Source: a virus. From it: a DNA stretch of 64,000 bases. Every line of letters begins with the position of its first letter. Position 1 is the first letter of the stretch. The stretch is taken from the IMG/VR virus record IMGVR_UViG_3300045988_132434, positions 1-64,000 of that record, one strand, 5' to 3'. Below are positions 2,182 to 8,901 of this stretch, piece after piece. Both the position numbers and the translations under genes were made by a program. A model generated the notes under the pieces. It ran no database searches, was not told the DNA's origin, and saw only the letters and a list, made by a program, of their open reading frames with translations.

Positions 2182-2679
2182 TTACTTGATACTATAATTT
2201 ACTGCAAGCACCTTGTTGTAAAGTTCTCGCATAGAACCGCTATTGAAGATGACAGCATCATAAAATGCCAACGGCAACTTCTTTCTGTTCTTGTCGCGGT
2301 CGATACGCTCCAGACTTACGCCACGGCGAATACGCGACGATATATTGGCAGCCACACAAATTTTGAACAGTTCTATATTGGGGAACTTCTCGCAGAGCGA
2401 CTTCAGACCGTCCTCGTCGATTACATAGATAGCCTTGTCGCCCACCTGCTCTACGGTGGTCCAATACTCATAGCCGCCATATTGCGTATAAGCCAGCATC
2501 TTGTCGTGCGACACATCACACTTCTCCACAAAGTGATGCTCCACACCGTCAATCTCACCTTCACGCTTCGGACGGGTGGTATAAGAGCATATCACTTGAT
2601 AGCCACCCATTTCAGACAGAATCCTTGCTACGGTGTCTTTTCCCGCACCACTCGGACCGGTAATTGTTATTAGTTTCAT
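2182..2679 (-). CDS. gmk: guanylate kinase-like nucleoside monophosphate kinase
   Basis: P-loop ITGPSGAGKD followed by YTTRPKREGEIDGVEHHFV (Gmk signature). I take the start at the internal ATG 2679, because the upstream MAITIAITIT extension is just a translation of a DNA repeat. Confidence 0.8.
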   Translation of the reverse strand: MKLITITGPSGAGKDTVARILSEMGGYQVICSYTTRPKREGEIDGVEHHFVEKCDVSHDKMLAYTQYGGYEYWTTVEQVGDKAIYVIDEDGLKSLCEKFPNIELFKICVAANISSRIRRGVSLERIDRDKNRKKLPLAFYDAVIFNSGSMRELYNKVLAVNYSIK

Positions 2680-2725
2680 AGAGTATAGAAAATGAGGTGA
2701 GCCACGTCCTTCATACGGCACTTCA

Positions 2726-2800
2726 GTGATAGTGATGGCGATAGTGATAGCCACCGCAGTCGGGTGATAGTGATAGCGAAATAGAAGATGTTGACTGCGG
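2726..2800. repeat. GTGATAG direct-repeat cluster plus 8-bp inverted repeat CCGCAGTC/GACTGCGG
   Basis: gtgatagtgatggcgatagtgatagcc at 2726-2752 and gtgatagtgatagcg at 2764-2778. The IR lies at 2754-2761 and 2793-2800. The cluster sits 50-120 nt upstream of the kinase start. Confidence 0.5.
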
Positions 2801-2805
2801 AGTGA

Positions 2806-2905
2806 TTTTTGCGCAAAACTTGCTCTAACCAGCTGAGCTACTTTTCTTCCGAAAAGAAAAGAAAGGATTCGAACCTATGACCTCGTGAGGCGCGTTTTTG
2901 CAAAC
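2806..2905 (-). ncRNA. circularly permuted tRNA-like element (3' half - 7 nt linker - 5' half)
   Basis: Minus strand reads AGGTC-ATAGG-TTCGAAT-CCTTT-CTTTTCT, then TTTCGGA, then AGAAAAG-TA-GCTC-AGCTGGTTA-GAGC-A. The T loop and D loop are canonical and the acceptor strands are perfectly complementary. There is no normally placed anticodon arm and no CCA. Confidence 0.5.
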
Positions 2906-3013
2906 GACCGCACTAAAAGAAAACTCCGTATGCTATCCGTGTGAGGGTCAGTTTCACGGTGCAAGACCTTCAGTCTGACCTTACCCACCTCGTATTATTT
3001 ATTATTTTATGTT

Positions 3014-3907
3014 TTACAAACCGTTGACCTCTGCATATATTCCCTGGAGGTCGTTAGGGATAATAATGCGTAGAGACGTTATCTCTTTGATTTCCTGCTG
3101 TTGCCACTCAACGAACATCGTCTGTAATCTCGACATTTCGGTATCGAAATAATTACTCTTTTCCTGACATTCTGCATATTTTTTCTTGTATTCAGCCAAT
3201 CGCTTGCTGTACTCCTTTTCGGCTTCTATCCGGAAACGATGCTCGATGCCATTAAACTCAGCTTGCAATGCCCGATATTCATCCTGAAGCTGGAAGAAGG
3301 TCTTATTCAGTCGGTTGATGGTATTGGATTCAACATTATAAGAGAACACAACCATATCACGGCCTTCTCCCTCTATCTCCGTAGGATTAGCCAGACGGTA
3401 TAACACTCTCTTCAATGCCATAGGCAACAGACCGTCGGGATGAATATATTTGCCATACACCGCCATTTTGGTTTTCAACTCAATATAGCGGTTGCGATCC
3501 TTTACATTCAGAATCTCATTGCCCACCTTGTCAATATCGGAAACCGGGTCAGGAGCCACTGGCCTTTCAGGCAGAGTAATATTATGATCGTCAGCCCACA
3601 CCATGAAGTTGCAGTCTTGCACTGACTTCAATCCTTTCTCACGTTCGTTGATAGCCTCACGCAGCCAACCGATAAGGGCGTTGCACTGAGCTACGCGACG
3701 TATTACATCGGGAATAGCATCAAGGGTGTCAAGAGGAGCTTCCACAATCGACGGTTGTGCATCGCCAAGCAGACGTGCACTCTTGGTGTAAAGACGCAAG
3801 GTGTCAGCCTGCGCAGAGATTCGCTGCGCATACTCCTTTGCCATGTTTGCAACATGGTTGGCAGATGTGGCTGTTAAGCCTTCTTTTGCAAAAAATACAT
3901 TATTCAT
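3014..3907 (-). CDS. hypothetical protein with C-terminal coiled coil
   Basis: 297 aa ORF with no recognisable motifs. Confidence 0.6.
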   Translation of the reverse strand: MNNVFFAKEGLTATSANHVANMAKEYAQRISAQADTLRLYTKSARLLGDAQPSIVEAPLDTLDAIPDVIRRVAQCNALIGWLREAINEREKGLKSVQDCNFMVWADDHNITLPERPVAPDPVSDIDKVGNEILNVKDRNRYIELKTKMAVYGKYIHPDGLLPMALKRVLYRLANPTEIEGEGRDMVVFSYNVESNTINRLNKTFFQLQDEYRALQAEFNGIEHRFRIEAEKEYSKRLAEYKKKYAECQEKSNYFDTEMSRLQTMFVEWQQQEIKEITSLRIIIPNDLQGIYAEVNGL

Positions 3908-5454: not shown

Positions 5455-5991
5455 ATGAGCGAAACACAAAAACACACAAACACTATGCAAATTAGAACAA
5501 ACGACGGCAACTATGACGTTGCCAGCAAGGGACTTGGCAATACAGCCTTGGGTCTCGGCATCGCAGGCTTGGCAACAAGTCTGTTGGGAGGCAGTGCCTC
5601 ACTGTTAGGTTTCGGTAAAAACGGCATGACCGCAAATCCATCTGATCCTGACGCACGCTTTGTCACCAAAAGCGAGACAAACCTGATTCAGGAGAACAGT
5701 ACGCTGAAAACGGAACTCGCCATTCAGAAAAGCGAGAACTACACCGACAAGAAACTCGTAGAGGTGACGACCTACCTCGATGCCAAAATGCGCAAACTGG
5801 AGGATAAGGTTGATGGCAACAAAGACGCACAGCAGGCTATCAATGCACAGCAGATGGCATACAATGCCGCCGCAAATGCAAACATTGATGTTTTGAAGTC
5901 GCAGGTGGCATCACTGACCAGCGTGACCAAACTGTTCATACCATCAAGCAACGTCTGCCAGACAGGATGCGGATGTGGCTGCAACGCTTAA
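5455..5991 (+). CDS. hypothetical Gly-rich hydrophobic plus coiled-coil protein ending CQTGCGCGCNA
   Basis: Internal ATG chosen just downstream of the promoter. Contains GLGNTALGLGIAGLATSLLGG, then heptad-like repeats, then a Cys-rich tail. Confidence 0.55.
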   Translation: MSETQKHTNTMQIRTNDGNYDVASKGLGNTALGLGIAGLATSLLGGSASLLGFGKNGMTANPSDPDARFVTKSETNLIQENSTLKTELAIQKSENYTDKKLVEVTTYLDAKMRKLEDKVDGNKDAQQAINAQQMAYNAAANANIDVLKSQVASLTSVTKLFIPSSNVCQTGCGCGCNA

Positions 5992-6003
5992 CGCTCAAAC
6001 GGT

Positions 6004-6426
6004 ATGGAATATTCCAACTCACAGATATTGGCAGCAGTCGTGTCAGAATGGGCACGACCTGCCATTTCTCAGATAGCTGCCGGCAATCTGATGAAACTGC
6101 CCATGCTGCAATCACTGCAGGCTACTATCAGTTCGATGGGGTTGGTCAGTGGAAACTATGCCTTGCAAAAAGACATAGAACCGCTCATTCAACCCGTGGT
6201 CAATTCGCTGGTCACACCTATGCTTGCCCGATATTTCGGTCAGATACCCGAAGAAAGCATACCTCAGATGGCACACGATGTGGTAGATAAGATCCGCTAC
6301 AACGGACCTCTGTCTATTCTTGAAGGTTTAGTAACCTTTGATGAAGACGACCTCGACGAACTGGCAGACCTTTTACAGAAAAATCTGCCCATTGAGAAAA
6401 CGGAAGGCTATCTCGTGAAGAAATAA
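6004..6426 (+). CDS. hypothetical protein
   Basis: 140 aa ORF, tightly packed in the operon. Confidence 0.55.
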   Translation: MEYSNSQILAAVVSEWARPAISQIAAGNLMKLPMLQSLQATISSMGLVSGNYALQKDIEPLIQPVVNSLVTPMLARYFGQIPEESIPQMAHDVVDKIRYNGPLSILEGLVTFDEDDLDELADLLQKNLPIEKTEGYLVKK

Positions 6427-6477
6427 AAACTATCCAGCGGCGGCTCGCTTCGTCGCTATAATAAAACAGAAACAACT

Positions 6478-6909
6478 ATGAACAAACGAACAACTCCGGC
6501 TTATATCACAGCCACCCTCGCAGTGGGTGCATCAGCAACAGCACCCTACTATGATGTCAACATCACCCAACAGCTATGCACACCGGCTTGCGTTGACGAA
6601 ACACCTGTGTTTAACCCCACATTCACGGTAAAGAATGTCGTCAACGTCGGTGCTTCACAATACCTTGTGGTTATCCACGTTGAAGGTGCAATAAACTACA
6701 TCCCATGCAACTGTGGATCATGTTGCACCAGGACACAGGTCATCAGTCAAGACTTCACTATCCCCGTCTTTAGCACAACAGCCATTCAGTCCGTTACCTC
6801 GTCTGTAGGTACCGTTCAGAATGGAATTGCAAAAATTGCCTGTTGCTCATGCTCCAGAACTTTCGTTTCTGACGCACCTCTGACGCTCACCATTACTGCA
6901 ACAGCATAA
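6478..6909 (+). CDS. hypothetical Cys-rich small protein
   Basis: 143 aa with PCNCGSCCTRT and ACCSCSRT clusters; otherwise rich in T, V and S. Confidence 0.55.
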   Translation: MNKRTTPAYITATLAVGASATAPYYDVNITQQLCTPACVDETPVFNPTFTVKNVVNVGASQYLVVIHVEGAINYIPCNCGSCCTRTQVISQDFTIPVFSTTAIQSVTSSVGTVQNGIAKIACCSCSRTFVSDAPLTLTITATA

Positions 6910-6910
6910 G

Positions 6911-7213
6911 ATGTTACTAATAGCACTTGCCATCATGGTGACAGCAACAATGAGTCAGCACCTCGGACTGGCACAGGCCATTACAGAGGTGCTGACTAAG
7001 ATTGCATCGTGTGCGCAATGCGCTACATTCTGGTCTGTTCTGTTGGGTCTGCTCTATATCGACGGAAACATCATATTGGATATGCTCTTAGCCATAATCA
7101 TGGCTTATCTGTCTAATTGGTGTCTATTAGTATTGTTACACTTACAACTCTATTTTAACATATTATATGACAAAGAAAACAAAAAACACCACAGCAACCG
7201 AAACAGCCAATGA
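6911..7213 (+). CDS. hypothetical multi-pass small membrane protein
   Basis: 100 aa with about 3 hydrophobic segments and a basic C-terminus. Its start lies 2 nt after the preceding stop. Confidence 0.55.
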   Translation: MLLIALAIMVTATMSQHLGLAQAITEVLTKIASCAQCATFWSVLLGLLYIDGNIILDMLLAIIMAYLSNWCLLVLLHLQLYFNILYDKENKKHHSNRNSQ

Positions 7214-7995: not shown

Positions 7996-8901
7996 ATGGA
8001 ATTACGACACCTGAAATCATTTATCTACGTTGCGGAAAACTTATCGTTTACTCTTGCAGCAACGCGCTGCTTCATCACACAATCAGCCATCAGCCAGCAC
8101 ATTAAAGCACTCGAAAACGAACTGAAGTGTAAACTGCTGATAAGAACATCACACGACATAACACTCACTGAAAGCGGAGAAGAACTGTACATTCGAGCGA
8201 AAGAAATTGTAAGACAAGCAGAAGACTGCAAAGAACATATCAGGTCATTAAACAACTGCATGACCGGAGAACTCCGCATTGGTGTAGGGTCTTTTATCGC
8301 ACCATACATCCGTGTCGCTGCATTGCTTTTCATGGAGCGCTACCCCAATGTGCGGATCAACGCTGAGTTTACCAAAGCCACCAGTCTGAATCGCTTACTT
8401 CGTGACCACACGATAGACCTGGCTTTCTCCATGAATACGGCATATCAAAACGAGGGAATAAAAACCAAACCTTGTATTCCATTTCATATCTACACCATTA
8501 TGCGTAAAACACACCCACTGGCCAATCTTGATAAGGTGTCGTATAAAGATCTGCTGCGACATGGTGTTATCATACCCGATGTAGGCGACCGCGTGTTCAA
8601 CACCCTGCAGCAATACATCACTTATGACCTTAACAAACTCAACGTGAAATGTATCGTCAGTGATCCTGACGAAGACCTGGCCATTATAGAAGAAACACCC
8701 TGGGTTACTTTCATGCCAAAGCTATATATGAAGAATCACCCGACACTTATAGCAAAGCCTATTGTTAACCTCGAAAACGAGCTGATGAGCAATGCCCACT
8801 GGATGAAGGATGTGCCGATGAAACTGTCTGCACAGACCTTCCTCGACATCATCCAGCAAGAGGCGATACCCTACATCAACGAACTCGAAAAAACATATTA
8901 A
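7996..8901 (+). CDS. LysR-family transcriptional regulator
   Basis: N-terminal MELRHLKSFIYVAENLSFTLAATRCFITQSAISQHIKALE is a classic LysR wHTH. Length of 301 aa fits, with a substrate-binding-type C-terminal region. Confidence 0.85.
   Translation: MELRHLKSFIYVAENLSFTLAATRCFITQSAISQHIKALENELKCKLLIRTSHDITLTESGEELYIRAKEIVRQAEDCKEHIRSLNNCMTGELRIGVGSFIAPYIRVAALLFMERYPNVRINAEFTKATSLNRLLRDHTIDLAFSMNTAYQNEGIKTKPCIPFHIYTIMRKTHPLANLDKVSYKDLLRHGVIIPDVGDRVFNTLQQYITYDLNKLNVKCIVSDPDEDLAIIEETPWVTFMPKLYMKNHPTLIAKPIVNLENELMSNAHWMKDVPMKLSAQTFLDIIQQEAIPYINELEKTY

What the first reader, a model, noticed from the sequence alone, without database searches (positions are those of the whole stretch)
2806..2905. Circularly permuted tRNA-like element in the 337-nt gap between two leftward genes
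On the minus strand, 2883->2855 reads AGGTC (typical variable loop), ATAGG-TTCGAAT-CCTTT (T arm with T54-T55-C56) and CTTTTCT (3' acceptor strand). A 7-nt linker TTTCGGA follows at 2854->2848.

Then 2847->2821 reads AGAAAAG (exact complement of CTTTTCT), TA (U8/A9), GCTC-AGCTGGTTA-GAGC (D arm with G18G19) and A26.

Both halves of a single tRNA are therefore present on the same strand, but the 3' half sits upstream of the 5' half. The acceptor stem is closed by a loop. The free ends lie where the anticodon stem should be: leader GCAAAAAC (2901->2894) can pair with trailer GTTTTGC (2819->2813) with one bulged A. Each end can also fold into its own small hairpin (CGTTT-GCAA-AAACG and TTTT-GCGC-AAAA). 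No CCA and no normally placed anticodon arm exist.

This gene order is the hallmark of permuted tRNA genes, described in the red alga Cyanidioschyzon merolae and a few other lineages, where a BHB splicing endonuclease circularises the precursor. I know of no phage or bacterial example.

Alternatives are the inner relic of a tandem tRNA duplication, or a tRNA-elbow mimic embedded in an mRNA untranslated region.
Basis: partly seen in the sequence, partly recalled or inferred. Interest (0 to 1): 0.75.

Follow-up and report, generated by a model that had tools for sequence, protein, structure and literature searches.

The report
Phage RNA with built-in tRNA mimic
The "permuted tRNA" is real and conserved, but it is not a tRNA gene: it is a tRNA-shaped domain, of the kind known from bacterial Y RNA-like (YrlA) RNAs, inside a roughly 307-base structured RNA that Prevotella-type phages carry next to an uncharacterised protein instead of the usual Ro60 partner.

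Summary
On the minus strand, 2883->2821 reads variable loop, T arm, a 7-bp acceptor stem closed by a 7-nt loop, U8-A9 and D arm, with the tRNA tertiary-contact bases present. ARAGORN finds no tRNA or tmRNA.

Across three phage clades, 12 of 16 base pairs of the T, acceptor and D stems show compensatory changes.

The only Rfam family that matches is YrlA (Y RNA-like), below its curated threshold. The literature describes YrlA as "circularly permuted tRNAs with closed acceptor stems", found in bacteria and phages. The BHB-splicing route to a working tRNA is not supported.

The element is one domain of a 307-nt RNA (2996->2690). An 8-bp helix closes this RNA, and that helix and a conserved hairpin recur in all three clades.

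The RNA always follows a 297-aa protein of unknown fold ("p297"). Gene and RNA together form one cassette that sister phages lack. No Ro60/TROVE gene is nearby, unlike in control phage YrlA loci.

Best reading: a new YrlA-like tRNA-mimic RNA family tied to p297. Its function is inferred, not shown.

The parts
2690..2996 (-). Whole structured RNA (307 nt), running from the 5' strand of closing helix P0 to its 3' strand. It lies between the p297 stop codon (3016-3014) and the kinase-like gene's ATG (2679).
   Evidence: Boundaries come from alignment A5. The P0 helix is conserved at 7-8 of 8 pairs in all three clades and encloses 290-438 nt. Sister phages that lack p297 lack this entire stretch.
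2984..2991 (-). P0 5' strand, GAGGTGGG. It pairs with 2701-2694.
   Evidence: 8 pairs, 100% paired, 3 with compensatory changes; the sequences are AAGACGAG/CTCGTCTT in the L304 clade and GACACAGG/CCTGTGTC in the long-protein clade.
2694..2701 (-). P0 3' strand, CTCACCTC. It ends 14 nt before the kinase ATG.
2946..2980 (-). Hairpin H1: GGTCAG - ACTGAAGGTCTTGCACCGTGAAA - CTGACC. The stem covaries between clades and the ends of the loop are conserved (ACTGRA ... GNGAAA).
   Evidence: The stem is GCCGCAG/CTGCGGC in the long-protein clade, with the same loop ends.
2926..2932 (-). Long-range helix Pa, 5' strand CATACGG. It pairs with CCGTATG at 2718-2712.
   Evidence: 7 pairs, 97.6% paired, with one-sided changes only. 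It is also predicted by the MFE fold of the whole gap.
2712..2718 (-). Pa 3' strand, CCGTATG.
2893..2906 (-). 5' local hairpin, CGTTT-GCAA-AAACG.
   Evidence: Relatives have an 8-bp hairpin here (ATGCGTTT...AAACGTGT). The L304 clade has a different one (ATGCT...AGCAT).
2879..2893 (-). Long variable region, GCGCCTCACGAGGTC. The stretch TCACGAGGT is conserved in both near clades and the region ends in the AGGTC variable loop.
2862..2878 (-). T arm, ATAGG-TTCGAAT-CCTTT.
   Evidence: 3 of 5 pairs have compensatory changes, and T54, T55, C56 and A58 are invariant.
2841..2861 (-). Acceptor-like stem closed by a loop, CTTTTCT-TTTCGGA-AGAAAAG.
   Evidence: all 7 pairs change on both sides across clades, and the stem always occupies 7 positions.
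2822..2840 (-). U8-A9 followed by the D arm, GCTC-AGCTGGTTA-GAGC.
   Evidence: the D stem is 100% paired and 2 pairs are compensatory. U8, A14, G18, G19 and A21 are invariant.
2806..2819 (-). Post-D hairpin, GTTTTGCGCAAAAA, in the position of an anticodon arm but with no anticodon loop.
   Evidence: The sister clade has covarying local hairpins here: ACACATT-GCT-AATGTGT and AATACA-TTGCTG-TGTATT.
2754..2800 (-). Helix P7, CCGCAGTC ... GACTGCGG, with a 31-nt loop that carries CTATCAC repeats.
   Evidence: 8 pairs, 99% paired, 2 compensatory pairs.
2736..2753 (-). Small hairpin, TGGC-TATCACTATC-GCCA. The pairing register is uncertain.
   Evidence: By inspection only.
3014..3907 (-). p297: a 297-aa protein of unknown function whose gene always lies immediately upstream of the RNA.
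   Evidence: homologues. (gene and RNA form one cassette). (no known family or fold).

Best explanation
The element is the tRNA-like domain of a roughly 307-nt structured RNA (window 2996->2690, minus strand) in a Prevotella-type phage.

The domain is a circular permutation of the tRNA cloverleaf. The order is variable region, T arm, a 7-bp acceptor stem closed by a loop, U8-A9, D arm, then an anticodon-arm-like helix with no anticodon. It keeps the bases that build the tRNA elbow, so it most likely folds into the tRNA L-shape with no free CCA end. This is the architecture of the tRNA-like module of bacterial Y RNA-like (YrlA) RNAs.

Here the module belongs to a different and larger RNA, and the neighbouring gene is the uncharacterised p297 rather than Ro60/Rsr.

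Proposed mechanism (inferred): the RNA is transcribed with p297 and folds into a compact domain closed by helix P0. It displays the tRNA elbow and a 12-bp acceptor/T minihelix as a handle for host factors that recognise tRNA shape, such as RNase P and the T- and D-loop modifying enzymes. It probably acts as a ribonucleoprotein with p297. RNase P may also cut in the acceptor loop, or at the genuine tRNA that follows the RNA in other clades, and so define the RNA's ends.

Shown here: sequence, conservation, covariation, strand, synteny, and absence of Ro60.
Inferred: expression, the 3D fold, the protein partner, any processing, and the biological role.
For: The sequence is as described and is unique in the window.

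Rfam: YrlA is the only family to hit the module besides tRNA. It scores 32.2 bits (E=3.4e-5) over the full model in the window and 28-40 bits in all other clades.

Covariation in 11 diverse copies:
- 95.5% of cells are paired.
- 12 of 16 pairs have changes on both sides.
- 0 of 500 shuffles reach this value.
- Slid controls reach at most 53% paired.
- The acceptor stem changes completely in sequence (CTTTTCT/AGAAAAG, CTCGCGC/GCGCGAG, ATCACG/CGTGAT, TTTGTGA/TCACAAA) but always occupies 7 positions.

The tertiary-contact bases U8, A14, G18, G19, A21, G53, T54, T55, C56, A58 and C61 are invariant.

A covariance model separates true copies (at least 68 bits) from tandem-tRNA junctions (at most 54 bits).

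The larger RNA is supported by compensatory pairs in P0 and P7. P0 and H1 are conserved in three clades and enclose 290-438 nt. G.U pairs in P0, H1, Pa, P7 and the T and acceptor stems fit only this strand.

Link to p297: module-1 copies scoring at least 68 bits among the p297 loci lie downstream of a p297 homologue of 94%, 57% or about 30% identity, on the same strand. In 63 of 80 sister-phage loci, p297 and the RNA are both missing between the same two flanking genes.

Precedent: YrlA is a crystallographically confirmed tRNA mimic. It is modified by TruB and DusA, and the 7-bp-stem version from M. smegmatis is cut by RNase P (PMC4201824; 10.1101/312249).
Against: There are no expression data. 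No promoter or terminator was found around the RNA, although the scan models sigma-70 sites, which is the wrong type for Bacteroidota.

Thermodynamic folding of the 146-nt element is no better than that of shuffled sequence (z = 0.14).

How the module is closed in the window's own clade is unresolved. Local hairpins and leader/trailer pairing compete, and predictions differ between close relatives.

The whole-RNA helices rest on few independent events, because only two or three clades are available.

p297 has no recognisable RNA-binding domain or known fold. Adjacency alone does not prove a complex.

Most p297 homologues (30-40% identity) lack this permuted module.
Confidence: 0.55

Rival explanations
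1. It is a genuine Y RNA (YrlA family member). It would work with a Ro60/Rsr protein supplied by the host, or by a part of the phage genome outside the window, tethering or gating Rsr as in Salmonella and Deinococcus.
For: It has the same module order as YrlA, and YrlA is the only Rfam family that hits besides tRNA. Phage elements that do sit beside TROVE genes also fall below the Rfam YrlA threshold, so the low score does not exclude membership.
Against: No ORF of 297 aa or more that was scanned in the window has a TROVE domain. tblastn with three phage TROVE proteins finds nothing in the window or in about 250 related loci.

In control phage contigs the permuted element lies beside the TROVE gene: directly adjacent in two and about 1 kb away in the third. 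YrlA was defined as lying within 4 kb of Ro60 on the same strand (PMC4201824).

The Ro-binding motif GNCGAAN0-1G is absent. The module is internal to a larger fold and has no long terminal stem.
Confidence: 0.15
2. It is mainly an RNA-processing and stability signal, like the mascRNA element of MALAT1 or mitochondrial tRNA punctuation. RNase P or RNase Z would recognise the tRNA shape and cut the p297-RNA-kinase transcript. The RNA would have no function of its own after cutting.
For: The acceptor stem is kept at 7 positions, giving the 12-bp acceptor/T minihelix. Genuine tRNA-Arg genes start about 8 nt after the RNA in the long-protein clade. An aberrant tRNA-like gene follows p297 in another clade. 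RNase P cuts the 7-bp-stem YrlA of M. smegmatis (PMC4201824).
Against: A cleavage signal does not need about 240 further nucleotides of conserved, covarying structure (P0, H1, Pa, P7). It also does not need a second tRNA-like module.
Confidence: 0.15
3. It is a decaying junction of a tandem tRNA duplication, or a dead tRNA array, with no present function.
For: In the long-protein clade the RNA reads like three fused tRNA pieces. The middle unit of L264 still scores 41 bits with the Rfam tRNA model. p297 homologues often sit in tRNA-rich regions. This is a plausible origin.
Against: The closed acceptor hairpins are formed (6-7 of 7 positions paired) in every clade and have completely different sequences. 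The would-be acceptor stem of the middle 'tRNA' is not maintained: 3-5 of 7 pairs in L366, L282 and L364.

Conservation holds across p297 divergence down to about 30% identity. No colinear tRNA occupies this site in sister phages; their tRNA-Met lies about 4 kb away.
Confidence: 0.05
4. It is a true circularly permuted tRNA gene. It would be matured, by circularisation and opening of the acceptor loop, into a functional tRNA.
For: The gene order is that of permuted tRNA genes. The YrlA authors themselves raised the possibility of such processing (10.1101/312249).
Against: There is no 7-nt anticodon loop. The post-D hairpin loops are GCGC or GCT, or the strands lead on into other domains. There is no CCA, and ARAGORN calls no tRNA. 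Bacteria are not known to have the BHB splicing endonuclease (established knowledge, also stated in 10.1101/312249). The module is enclosed by P0 and Pa within a larger RNA.
Confidence: 0.03
5. The region is chiefly a DNA-level element: a replication origin with iterons, or an attachment site that copies part of a host tRNA. The RNA-like features would be incidental.
For: There are short direct repeats (CTATCAC) in 2700-2790. The region sits inside the replication and nucleotide-metabolism gene block.
Against: G.U pairs that would be A.C on the other strand occur in six helices. T-loop and D-loop identity bases are RNA-level features. An attachment site would copy only the 3' part of a tRNA.
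Confidence: 0.05

Closest known systems
YrlA (Y RNA-like A; Rfam RF02553), the tRNA-like module of bacterial and phage Y RNAs
   Same: The order is V region, T arm, loop-closed acceptor stem, D arm. The tRNA elbow bases are conserved and there is no CCA end. It is found in phages as well as bacteria. In the long-protein clade the anticodon-like stem is formed by the two flanks, exactly as in YrlA.
   Different: No Ro60/Rsr gene is nearby, whereas that adjacency is part of YrlA's definition. There is no Ro-binding stem or motif. The module is internal to a 300-440-nt RNA with further conserved helices, and some clades carry two modules. It is linked to an unrelated protein family. Scores are 28-40 bits against a threshold of 69.
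Circularly permuted tRNA genes of Cyanidioschyzon merolae and some other algae and archaea
   Same: The 3' half lies upstream of the 5' half on one strand, and the acceptor ends are joined by a short linker.
   Different: Those genes yield real tRNAs through a BHB motif, a circular intermediate and CCA addition. Here there is no anticodon loop, no BHB junction, a bacterial host, and a larger enclosing fold.
tRNA-like 3' elements of long RNAs (MALAT1 mascRNA, MEN-beta)
   Same: A tRNA-shaped element embedded in a longer transcript. It may be used by RNase P to define RNA ends.
   Different: Those elements are colinear cloverleaves with an open acceptor stem, and they are eukaryotic.
tmRNA tRNA-like domain, including two-piece permuted tmRNA genes
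   Same: A tRNA mimic inside a larger RNA. Permuted gene order occurs in some lineages.
   Different: tmRNA has a free CCA end, a G3.U70 pair for AlaRS, a degenerate D arm and a tag reading frame. None of these is present here. ARAGORN reported no tmRNA gene in the window.
Large phage-associated structured RNAs found near tRNA genes (ROOL, GOLLD)
   Same: A large, multi-helix RNA of unknown function, carried by phages and often next to tRNA genes.
   Different: No Rfam match to either family at gathering or permissive thresholds. This RNA is smaller and has a different architecture.

Membership tests
YrlA / bacterial Y RNA (RF02553) | T arm, loop-closed acceptor-like stem and D arm in that order, with the tRNA tertiary-contact bases. 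| tested here: met
YrlA / bacterial Y RNA (RF02553) | Reaches the Rfam curated gathering score (69 bits). | tested here: not met
   32.2 bits in the window and 28-40 bits in relatives. Caveat: phage elements that lie beside TROVE genes also fail this cut-off.
YrlA / bacterial Y RNA (RF02553) | Encoded within about 4 kb of a Ro60/Rsr (TROVE-domain) gene on the same strand (PMC4201824). | tested here: not met
   Pfam on 20 window ORFs, including every ORF of 297 aa or more. tblastn of three phage TROVE proteins against the window and about 250 related loci gives only noise. The part of the phage genome outside the window was not seen.
YrlA / bacterial Y RNA (RF02553) | The 5' and 3' ends form a stem carrying the Ro-binding motif GNCGAAN0-1G. 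| tested here: not met
   The motif is absent in all clades. Relatives have TCCGAAAC, the window copy has none. The test has low power, because the motif was also not found in the three TROVE-adjacent controls.
YrlA / bacterial Y RNA (RF02553) | Bound by Rsr/Ro60 in vivo. | not testable with these tools
   Needs immunoprecipitation.
Circularly permuted tRNA gene | The 3' half lies upstream of the 5' half on the same strand. | tested here: met
Circularly permuted tRNA gene | Leader and trailer form a BHB motif whose excision rebuilds a 7-nt anticodon loop. | tested here: not met
   By inspection: the loops are GCGC or GCT, or the strands continue into other domains. The leader/trailer pairing is not conserved in the sister clade.
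Circularly permuted tRNA gene | Host has a tRNA splicing endonuclease, and a circular intermediate is formed. | not testable with these tools
   Established knowledge: no BHB endonuclease has been reported in bacteria (also stated in 10.1101/312249).
Canonical tRNA | Colinear cloverleaf with an anticodon, detected by tRNA finders. | tested here: not met
   ARAGORN finds 0 genes in the window. Rfam tRNA scores 14.6 bits against a threshold of 29.
tmRNA (including permuted two-piece forms) | tRNA-like domain with CCA and G3.U70, plus a tag reading frame. | tested here: not met
   ARAGORN finds no tmRNA. The 3:70 pair is A-U.

The most novel reading that the evidence does not exclude
This would be a previously undescribed family of 300-440-nt phage RNAs, found in Bacteroidales phages (Prevotella, Muribaculaceae and others).

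Its core would be one or two 'domain-swapped' tRNA units: the acceptor strands of neighbouring tRNA-derived pieces pair with each other instead of within one tRNA.

The RNA would form a ribonucleoprotein with the p297 protein family, a Ro60-independent counterpart of Y RNPs. It would use tRNA mimicry to capture, divert or decoy host machinery that recognises tRNA shape, for example RNase P, modification enzymes or tRNA-targeting defence nucleases.
Probability: 0.3. Interest if true: 0.8.

Novelty: new variant of a known kind. Interest (0 to 1): 0.62.

Why it matters
tRNA mimicry by YrlA-type RNAs has so far been tied to Ro60. The factor that reads the tRNA-like domain is still unknown.

Here the same permuted tRNA fold is conserved with strong covariation and no Ro60 gene nearby. 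It sits inside a larger RNA and is genetically locked to a different, uncharacterised protein. This suggests the tRNA-like module is a portable unit that phages reuse in other ribonucleoproteins.

It also provides a compact two-part system, p297 plus RNA, in which to look for the module's partner. It adds a candidate structured RNA class for gut Bacteroidales phages. Finally, it shows how tRNA gene arrays can be remodelled into new RNAs.

Tried and rejected
- **ARAGORN** for tRNA and tmRNA in the window: nothing.
- **Rfam at gathering thresholds** on the whole window: nothing.
- **Megablast of the locus against GenBank phages:** no match. A p297 protein search there found only two distant, unannotated hits.
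- **RNAalifold on the nine close relatives:** it proposed a CGGAGT/ACTCCG terminal stem. I dropped this because the sister clade lacks the complement.
- **MFE folds:** they disagree between close relatives on how the module is closed. My second constrained fold was mis-specified and is not used.
- **Function of p297:** Pfam, PHROGs and NCBIfam scans, a PDB sequence profile search, and Foldseek against PDB and BFVD gave no function.
- **Pfam on neighbours of distant loci:** no consistent functional context.
- **Counting short repeat motifs downstream of all p297 genes:** uninformative.
- **Derivation from the phage's own tRNA-Met:** checked by eye, no special similarity.
- **Supplementary tables of the YrlA paper:** not held as text, so I could not check whether Bacteroidota hosts carry Rsr.
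- **Literature searches** for a prior description of such an RNA in Bacteroidales phages: nothing found. This does not prove absence.

Full report
**1. The observation.**
- AGGTC (2883-2879)
- ATAGG-TTCGAAT-CCTTT (2878-2862)
- CTTTTCT (2861-2855)
- loop TTTCGGA (2854-2848)
- AGAAAAG (2847-2841)
- TA (2840-2839)
- GCTC-AGCTGGTTA-GAGC (2838-2822)
- A (2821)

The joint T-loop and D-arm pattern occurs once in 64 kb and never in 100 shuffles. ARAGORN finds no tRNA or tmRNA anywhere in the window. Rfam at curated thresholds finds nothing.

Small corrections: the T stem of this copy has one U.U mismatch that all 11 relatives in alignment A5 lack. The gap is 334 nt if the downstream gene starts at ATG 2679.

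**2. What it resembles.**
A permissive Rfam scan of 2600-3100 gives one meaningful hit: YrlA (RF02553, 'Y RNA-like'). It covers the full model at 2914->2791, with 32.2 bits and E=3.4e-5, against a gathering score of 69. The tRNA model scores 14.6 bits.

YrlA RNAs were described in more than 250 bacteria and 22 phages. They contain a T arm, an 'acceptor' stem-loop and a D arm in exactly this order (PMC4201824).

**3. Genomic setting.**
The window is phage DNA. It encodes ThyX, MazG, a guanylate-kinase-like protein, a primase-like protein, NAD-dependent ligase, a beta clamp and a tape-measure protein. A 94%-identical copy of the upstream protein sits in a contig binned with a Prevotella MAG.

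The element lies between a 297-aa protein with no Pfam or PHROG family (p297, 3907->3014) and the kinase-like gene (2679->2182).

Twelve IMG/VR contigs carry p297 at 90% identity or more, and all have the element at 84-90% nucleotide identity.

In 63 of 80 loci from sister phages, the kinase gene is preceded directly by the homologue of the window's 366-aa primase-like protein. None of the noncoding stretch is present there. p297 and the RNA are thus gained or lost together as one cassette.

**4. Conservation and covariation of the tRNA-like core.**
I searched loci of distant p297 homologues (alignment A2). The same permuted arrangement lies 130-220 nt downstream of the gene, on the same strand, in two further clades:
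- one with p297 at 57% identity (L214, L304, L305, L365)
- one with longer proteins (about 384 aa) at about 30% identity (L264, L271, L282, L291, L364, L366, L371, L386)

On 11 diverse copies:
- 95.5% of cells are paired.
- 12 of 16 pairs change on both sides.
- No shuffle out of 500 reaches this.
- Shifting partners by 1-3 columns drops pairing to 37-53%.

The acceptor-like stem is completely different in sequence between clades but always spans seven positions. U8, A14, G18, G19, A21, G53, T54, T55, C56, A58 and C61 never vary.

A covariance model built from these copies scores true copies at 68-80 bits. Tandem-tRNA junctions and everything else score 54 bits or less. This rules out chance and a decaying relic.

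**5. The element is one domain of a larger RNA.**
I aligned the whole gap of the window clade and the 57% clade (A5).
- A closing helix P0 (2991-2984 with 2701-2694; GAGGTGGG/CTCACCTC against AAGACGAG/CTCGTCTT).
- A hairpin H1 (2980-2946).
- A long-range helix Pa (2932-2926 with 2718-2712).
- Helix P7 (2800-2793 with 2761-2754).

Overall 98% of cells pair. P0 has three compensatory pairs and P7 has two.

P0 and H1 recur in the long-protein clade with different stem sequences and the same H1 loop ends. They enclose 390-438 nt there. Several helices contain G.U pairs, which fit only this strand.

In the long-protein clade a second permuted module follows the first: a T arm, a closed hairpin and a Leu-type D arm. 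A genuine tRNA-Arg often starts about 8 nt after the RNA.

The middle stretch of L264 (first D arm to second T arm) still scores 41 bits as a tRNA. Its would-be acceptor stem is not maintained in the other members. This suggests the RNA arose from a tRNA array whose neighbouring acceptor strands came to pair with each other.

**6. How the module is closed.**
In the long-protein clade, five bases just before the variable loop pair with five bases just after the D arm. The pairs are TCTGA/TCAGA, CTTAT/ATAAG, ACCGA/TTGGT, TTCAGA/TTTGAA and ACTTG/CAAGT. This gives a YrlA-like anticodon stem.

In the 57% clade the flanks instead form their own covarying hairpins, for example ACACATT-GCT-AATGTGT against AATACA-TTGCTG-TGTATT.

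The window copy can do either. MFE predictions switch with context. I leave this unresolved. Neither solution rebuilds an anticodon loop.

**7. Is it a Y RNA?**
As a control, I examined other loop-closed permuted elements picked up by a pattern scan of viral contigs. They lie beside TROVE/Ro60 genes in L011, L087 and L107. Those RNAs also miss the Rfam YrlA threshold.

By contrast, none of the 20 window ORFs scanned, which include every ORF of 297 aa or more, has a TROVE domain. tblastn with the three phage TROVE proteins finds nothing in the window or in about 250 related loci. The Ro-binding motif is absent.

The element therefore works like, and probably descends from the same source as, the YrlA tRNA-like module. 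It fails the genomic and Ro-binding criteria for membership. A host Rsr, or one encoded outside the window, cannot be excluded.

**8. The partner protein.**
p297 belongs to a family of at least 365 proteins in Bacteroidales phages and prophages. Its AlphaFold model (pLDDT 80) is mostly long helices.

It has no significant PDB match and one uncharacterised phage match in BFVD. NCBIfam and a PDB sequence profile give nothing.

Many homologues sit among tRNA genes. In another clade (about 32% identity), an H1-like hairpin follows the stop codon and an aberrant colinear tRNA-like gene lies about 267 nt downstream. A link between this protein family and tRNA-like RNA therefore seems general. Its nature is unknown.

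**9. Mechanism and verdict.**
*Shown:* a conserved, covarying, strand-specific, tRNA-shaped domain inside a closed RNA of about 307 nt, inherited together with p297 and without Ro60.

*Inferred:* the RNA is made from the p297 transcript. It folds into an L-shaped tRNA mimic with a 12-bp acceptor/T minihelix. It uses that shape to engage host tRNA-recognising factors, probably as a complex with p297. RNase P may define its ends.

Rivals, in order of credibility:
- a true Y RNA using an unseen Rsr
- a pure processing signal
- a dead tRNA array
- a DNA-level element
- a genuine permuted tRNA gene

I found no prior description in Rfam 15 or in the searchable literature.

Noticed in passing
window 2946-2980 (minus strand); L264 4200-4237; L364 4176-4213: Hairpin H1 directly after the P0 strand has a covarying stem (GGTCAG/CTGACC against GCCGCAG/CTGCGGC). 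Its loop ends are strongly conserved (ACTGRA ... GNGAAA) across all three clades. It looks like a specific binding site.
   Followed up: partly
window 2700-2790 (minus strand): Several copies of CTATCAC(T) lie in and around helices P7 and P8. The long-protein clade has a different repeat (TCTTGCT) at the equivalent place. These could be protein-binding repeats, or alternative partners for the AGTG(A) segment at 2914-2911.
   Followed up: partly
L264 4364-4430, L271 4364-4424, L282 4338-4394, L364 4369-4425, L366 4349-4409; L215 1462-1514 and L308 4008-4060: A second type of permuted module: T arm, short closed hairpin, then a Leu-type D arm (TGGCGGAATGGGTAAACGCG) followed by a short hairpin. 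It sits after module 1, before it in L371 and L291, or alone after p297 homologues of 37% identity.
   Followed up: partly
L264 4329-4399: The stretch from the first module's acceptor 3' strand to the second module's acceptor 5' strand scores 41 bits with the Rfam tRNA model (threshold 29). This hints that the RNA derives from a fused tRNA array.
   Followed up: partly
L324 4143-4213 and about 15 similar loci (L327, L333, L335-L339, L343-L351): In roughly 95-100-kb contigs with p297 homologues of about 32% identity, an H1-like hairpin starts at the stop codon. An aberrant colinear tRNA-like gene (ARAGORN 'tRNA-?(tt)', with a 6-nt anticodon loop) lies about 267 nt downstream.
   Followed up: partly
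L011 11303-11355, L087 about 2540-2600, L107 3393-3445: Loop-closed permuted tRNA-like elements lie beside TROVE/Ro60 genes in other viral contigs, so they are evidently phage YrlA RNAs. None reaches the Rfam YrlA gathering score, so that model under-detects phage members.
   Followed up: partly
L071 5122-5175 and ORF 5641-7113: A similar permuted element lies next to a DUF2828/DUF7788 protein rather than a protein Pfam calls TROVE. It is near tRNA genes and a glutathionylspermidine synthase gene.
   Followed up: no
window 7996-8901 (plus strand): A full-length LysR-type transcriptional regulator (HTH_1 plus LysR_substrate) is encoded in what otherwise looks like phage DNA.
   Followed up: no
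window 1-64000; L202 8003-8077: The 64-kb window has no tRNA gene at all. Related phages carry a tRNA-Met about 4 kb beyond the kinase gene start, which would fall just outside the window's left edge.
   Followed up: partly
window 2893-2915 compared with relatives (alignment A1, columns 17-45): The window copy differs from all 12 close relatives by a short deletion and several substitutions. These convert an 8-bp hairpin with a TTCCG loop into a 5-bp hairpin with a GCAA tetraloop, and remove the TCCGAA sequence.
   Followed up: partly
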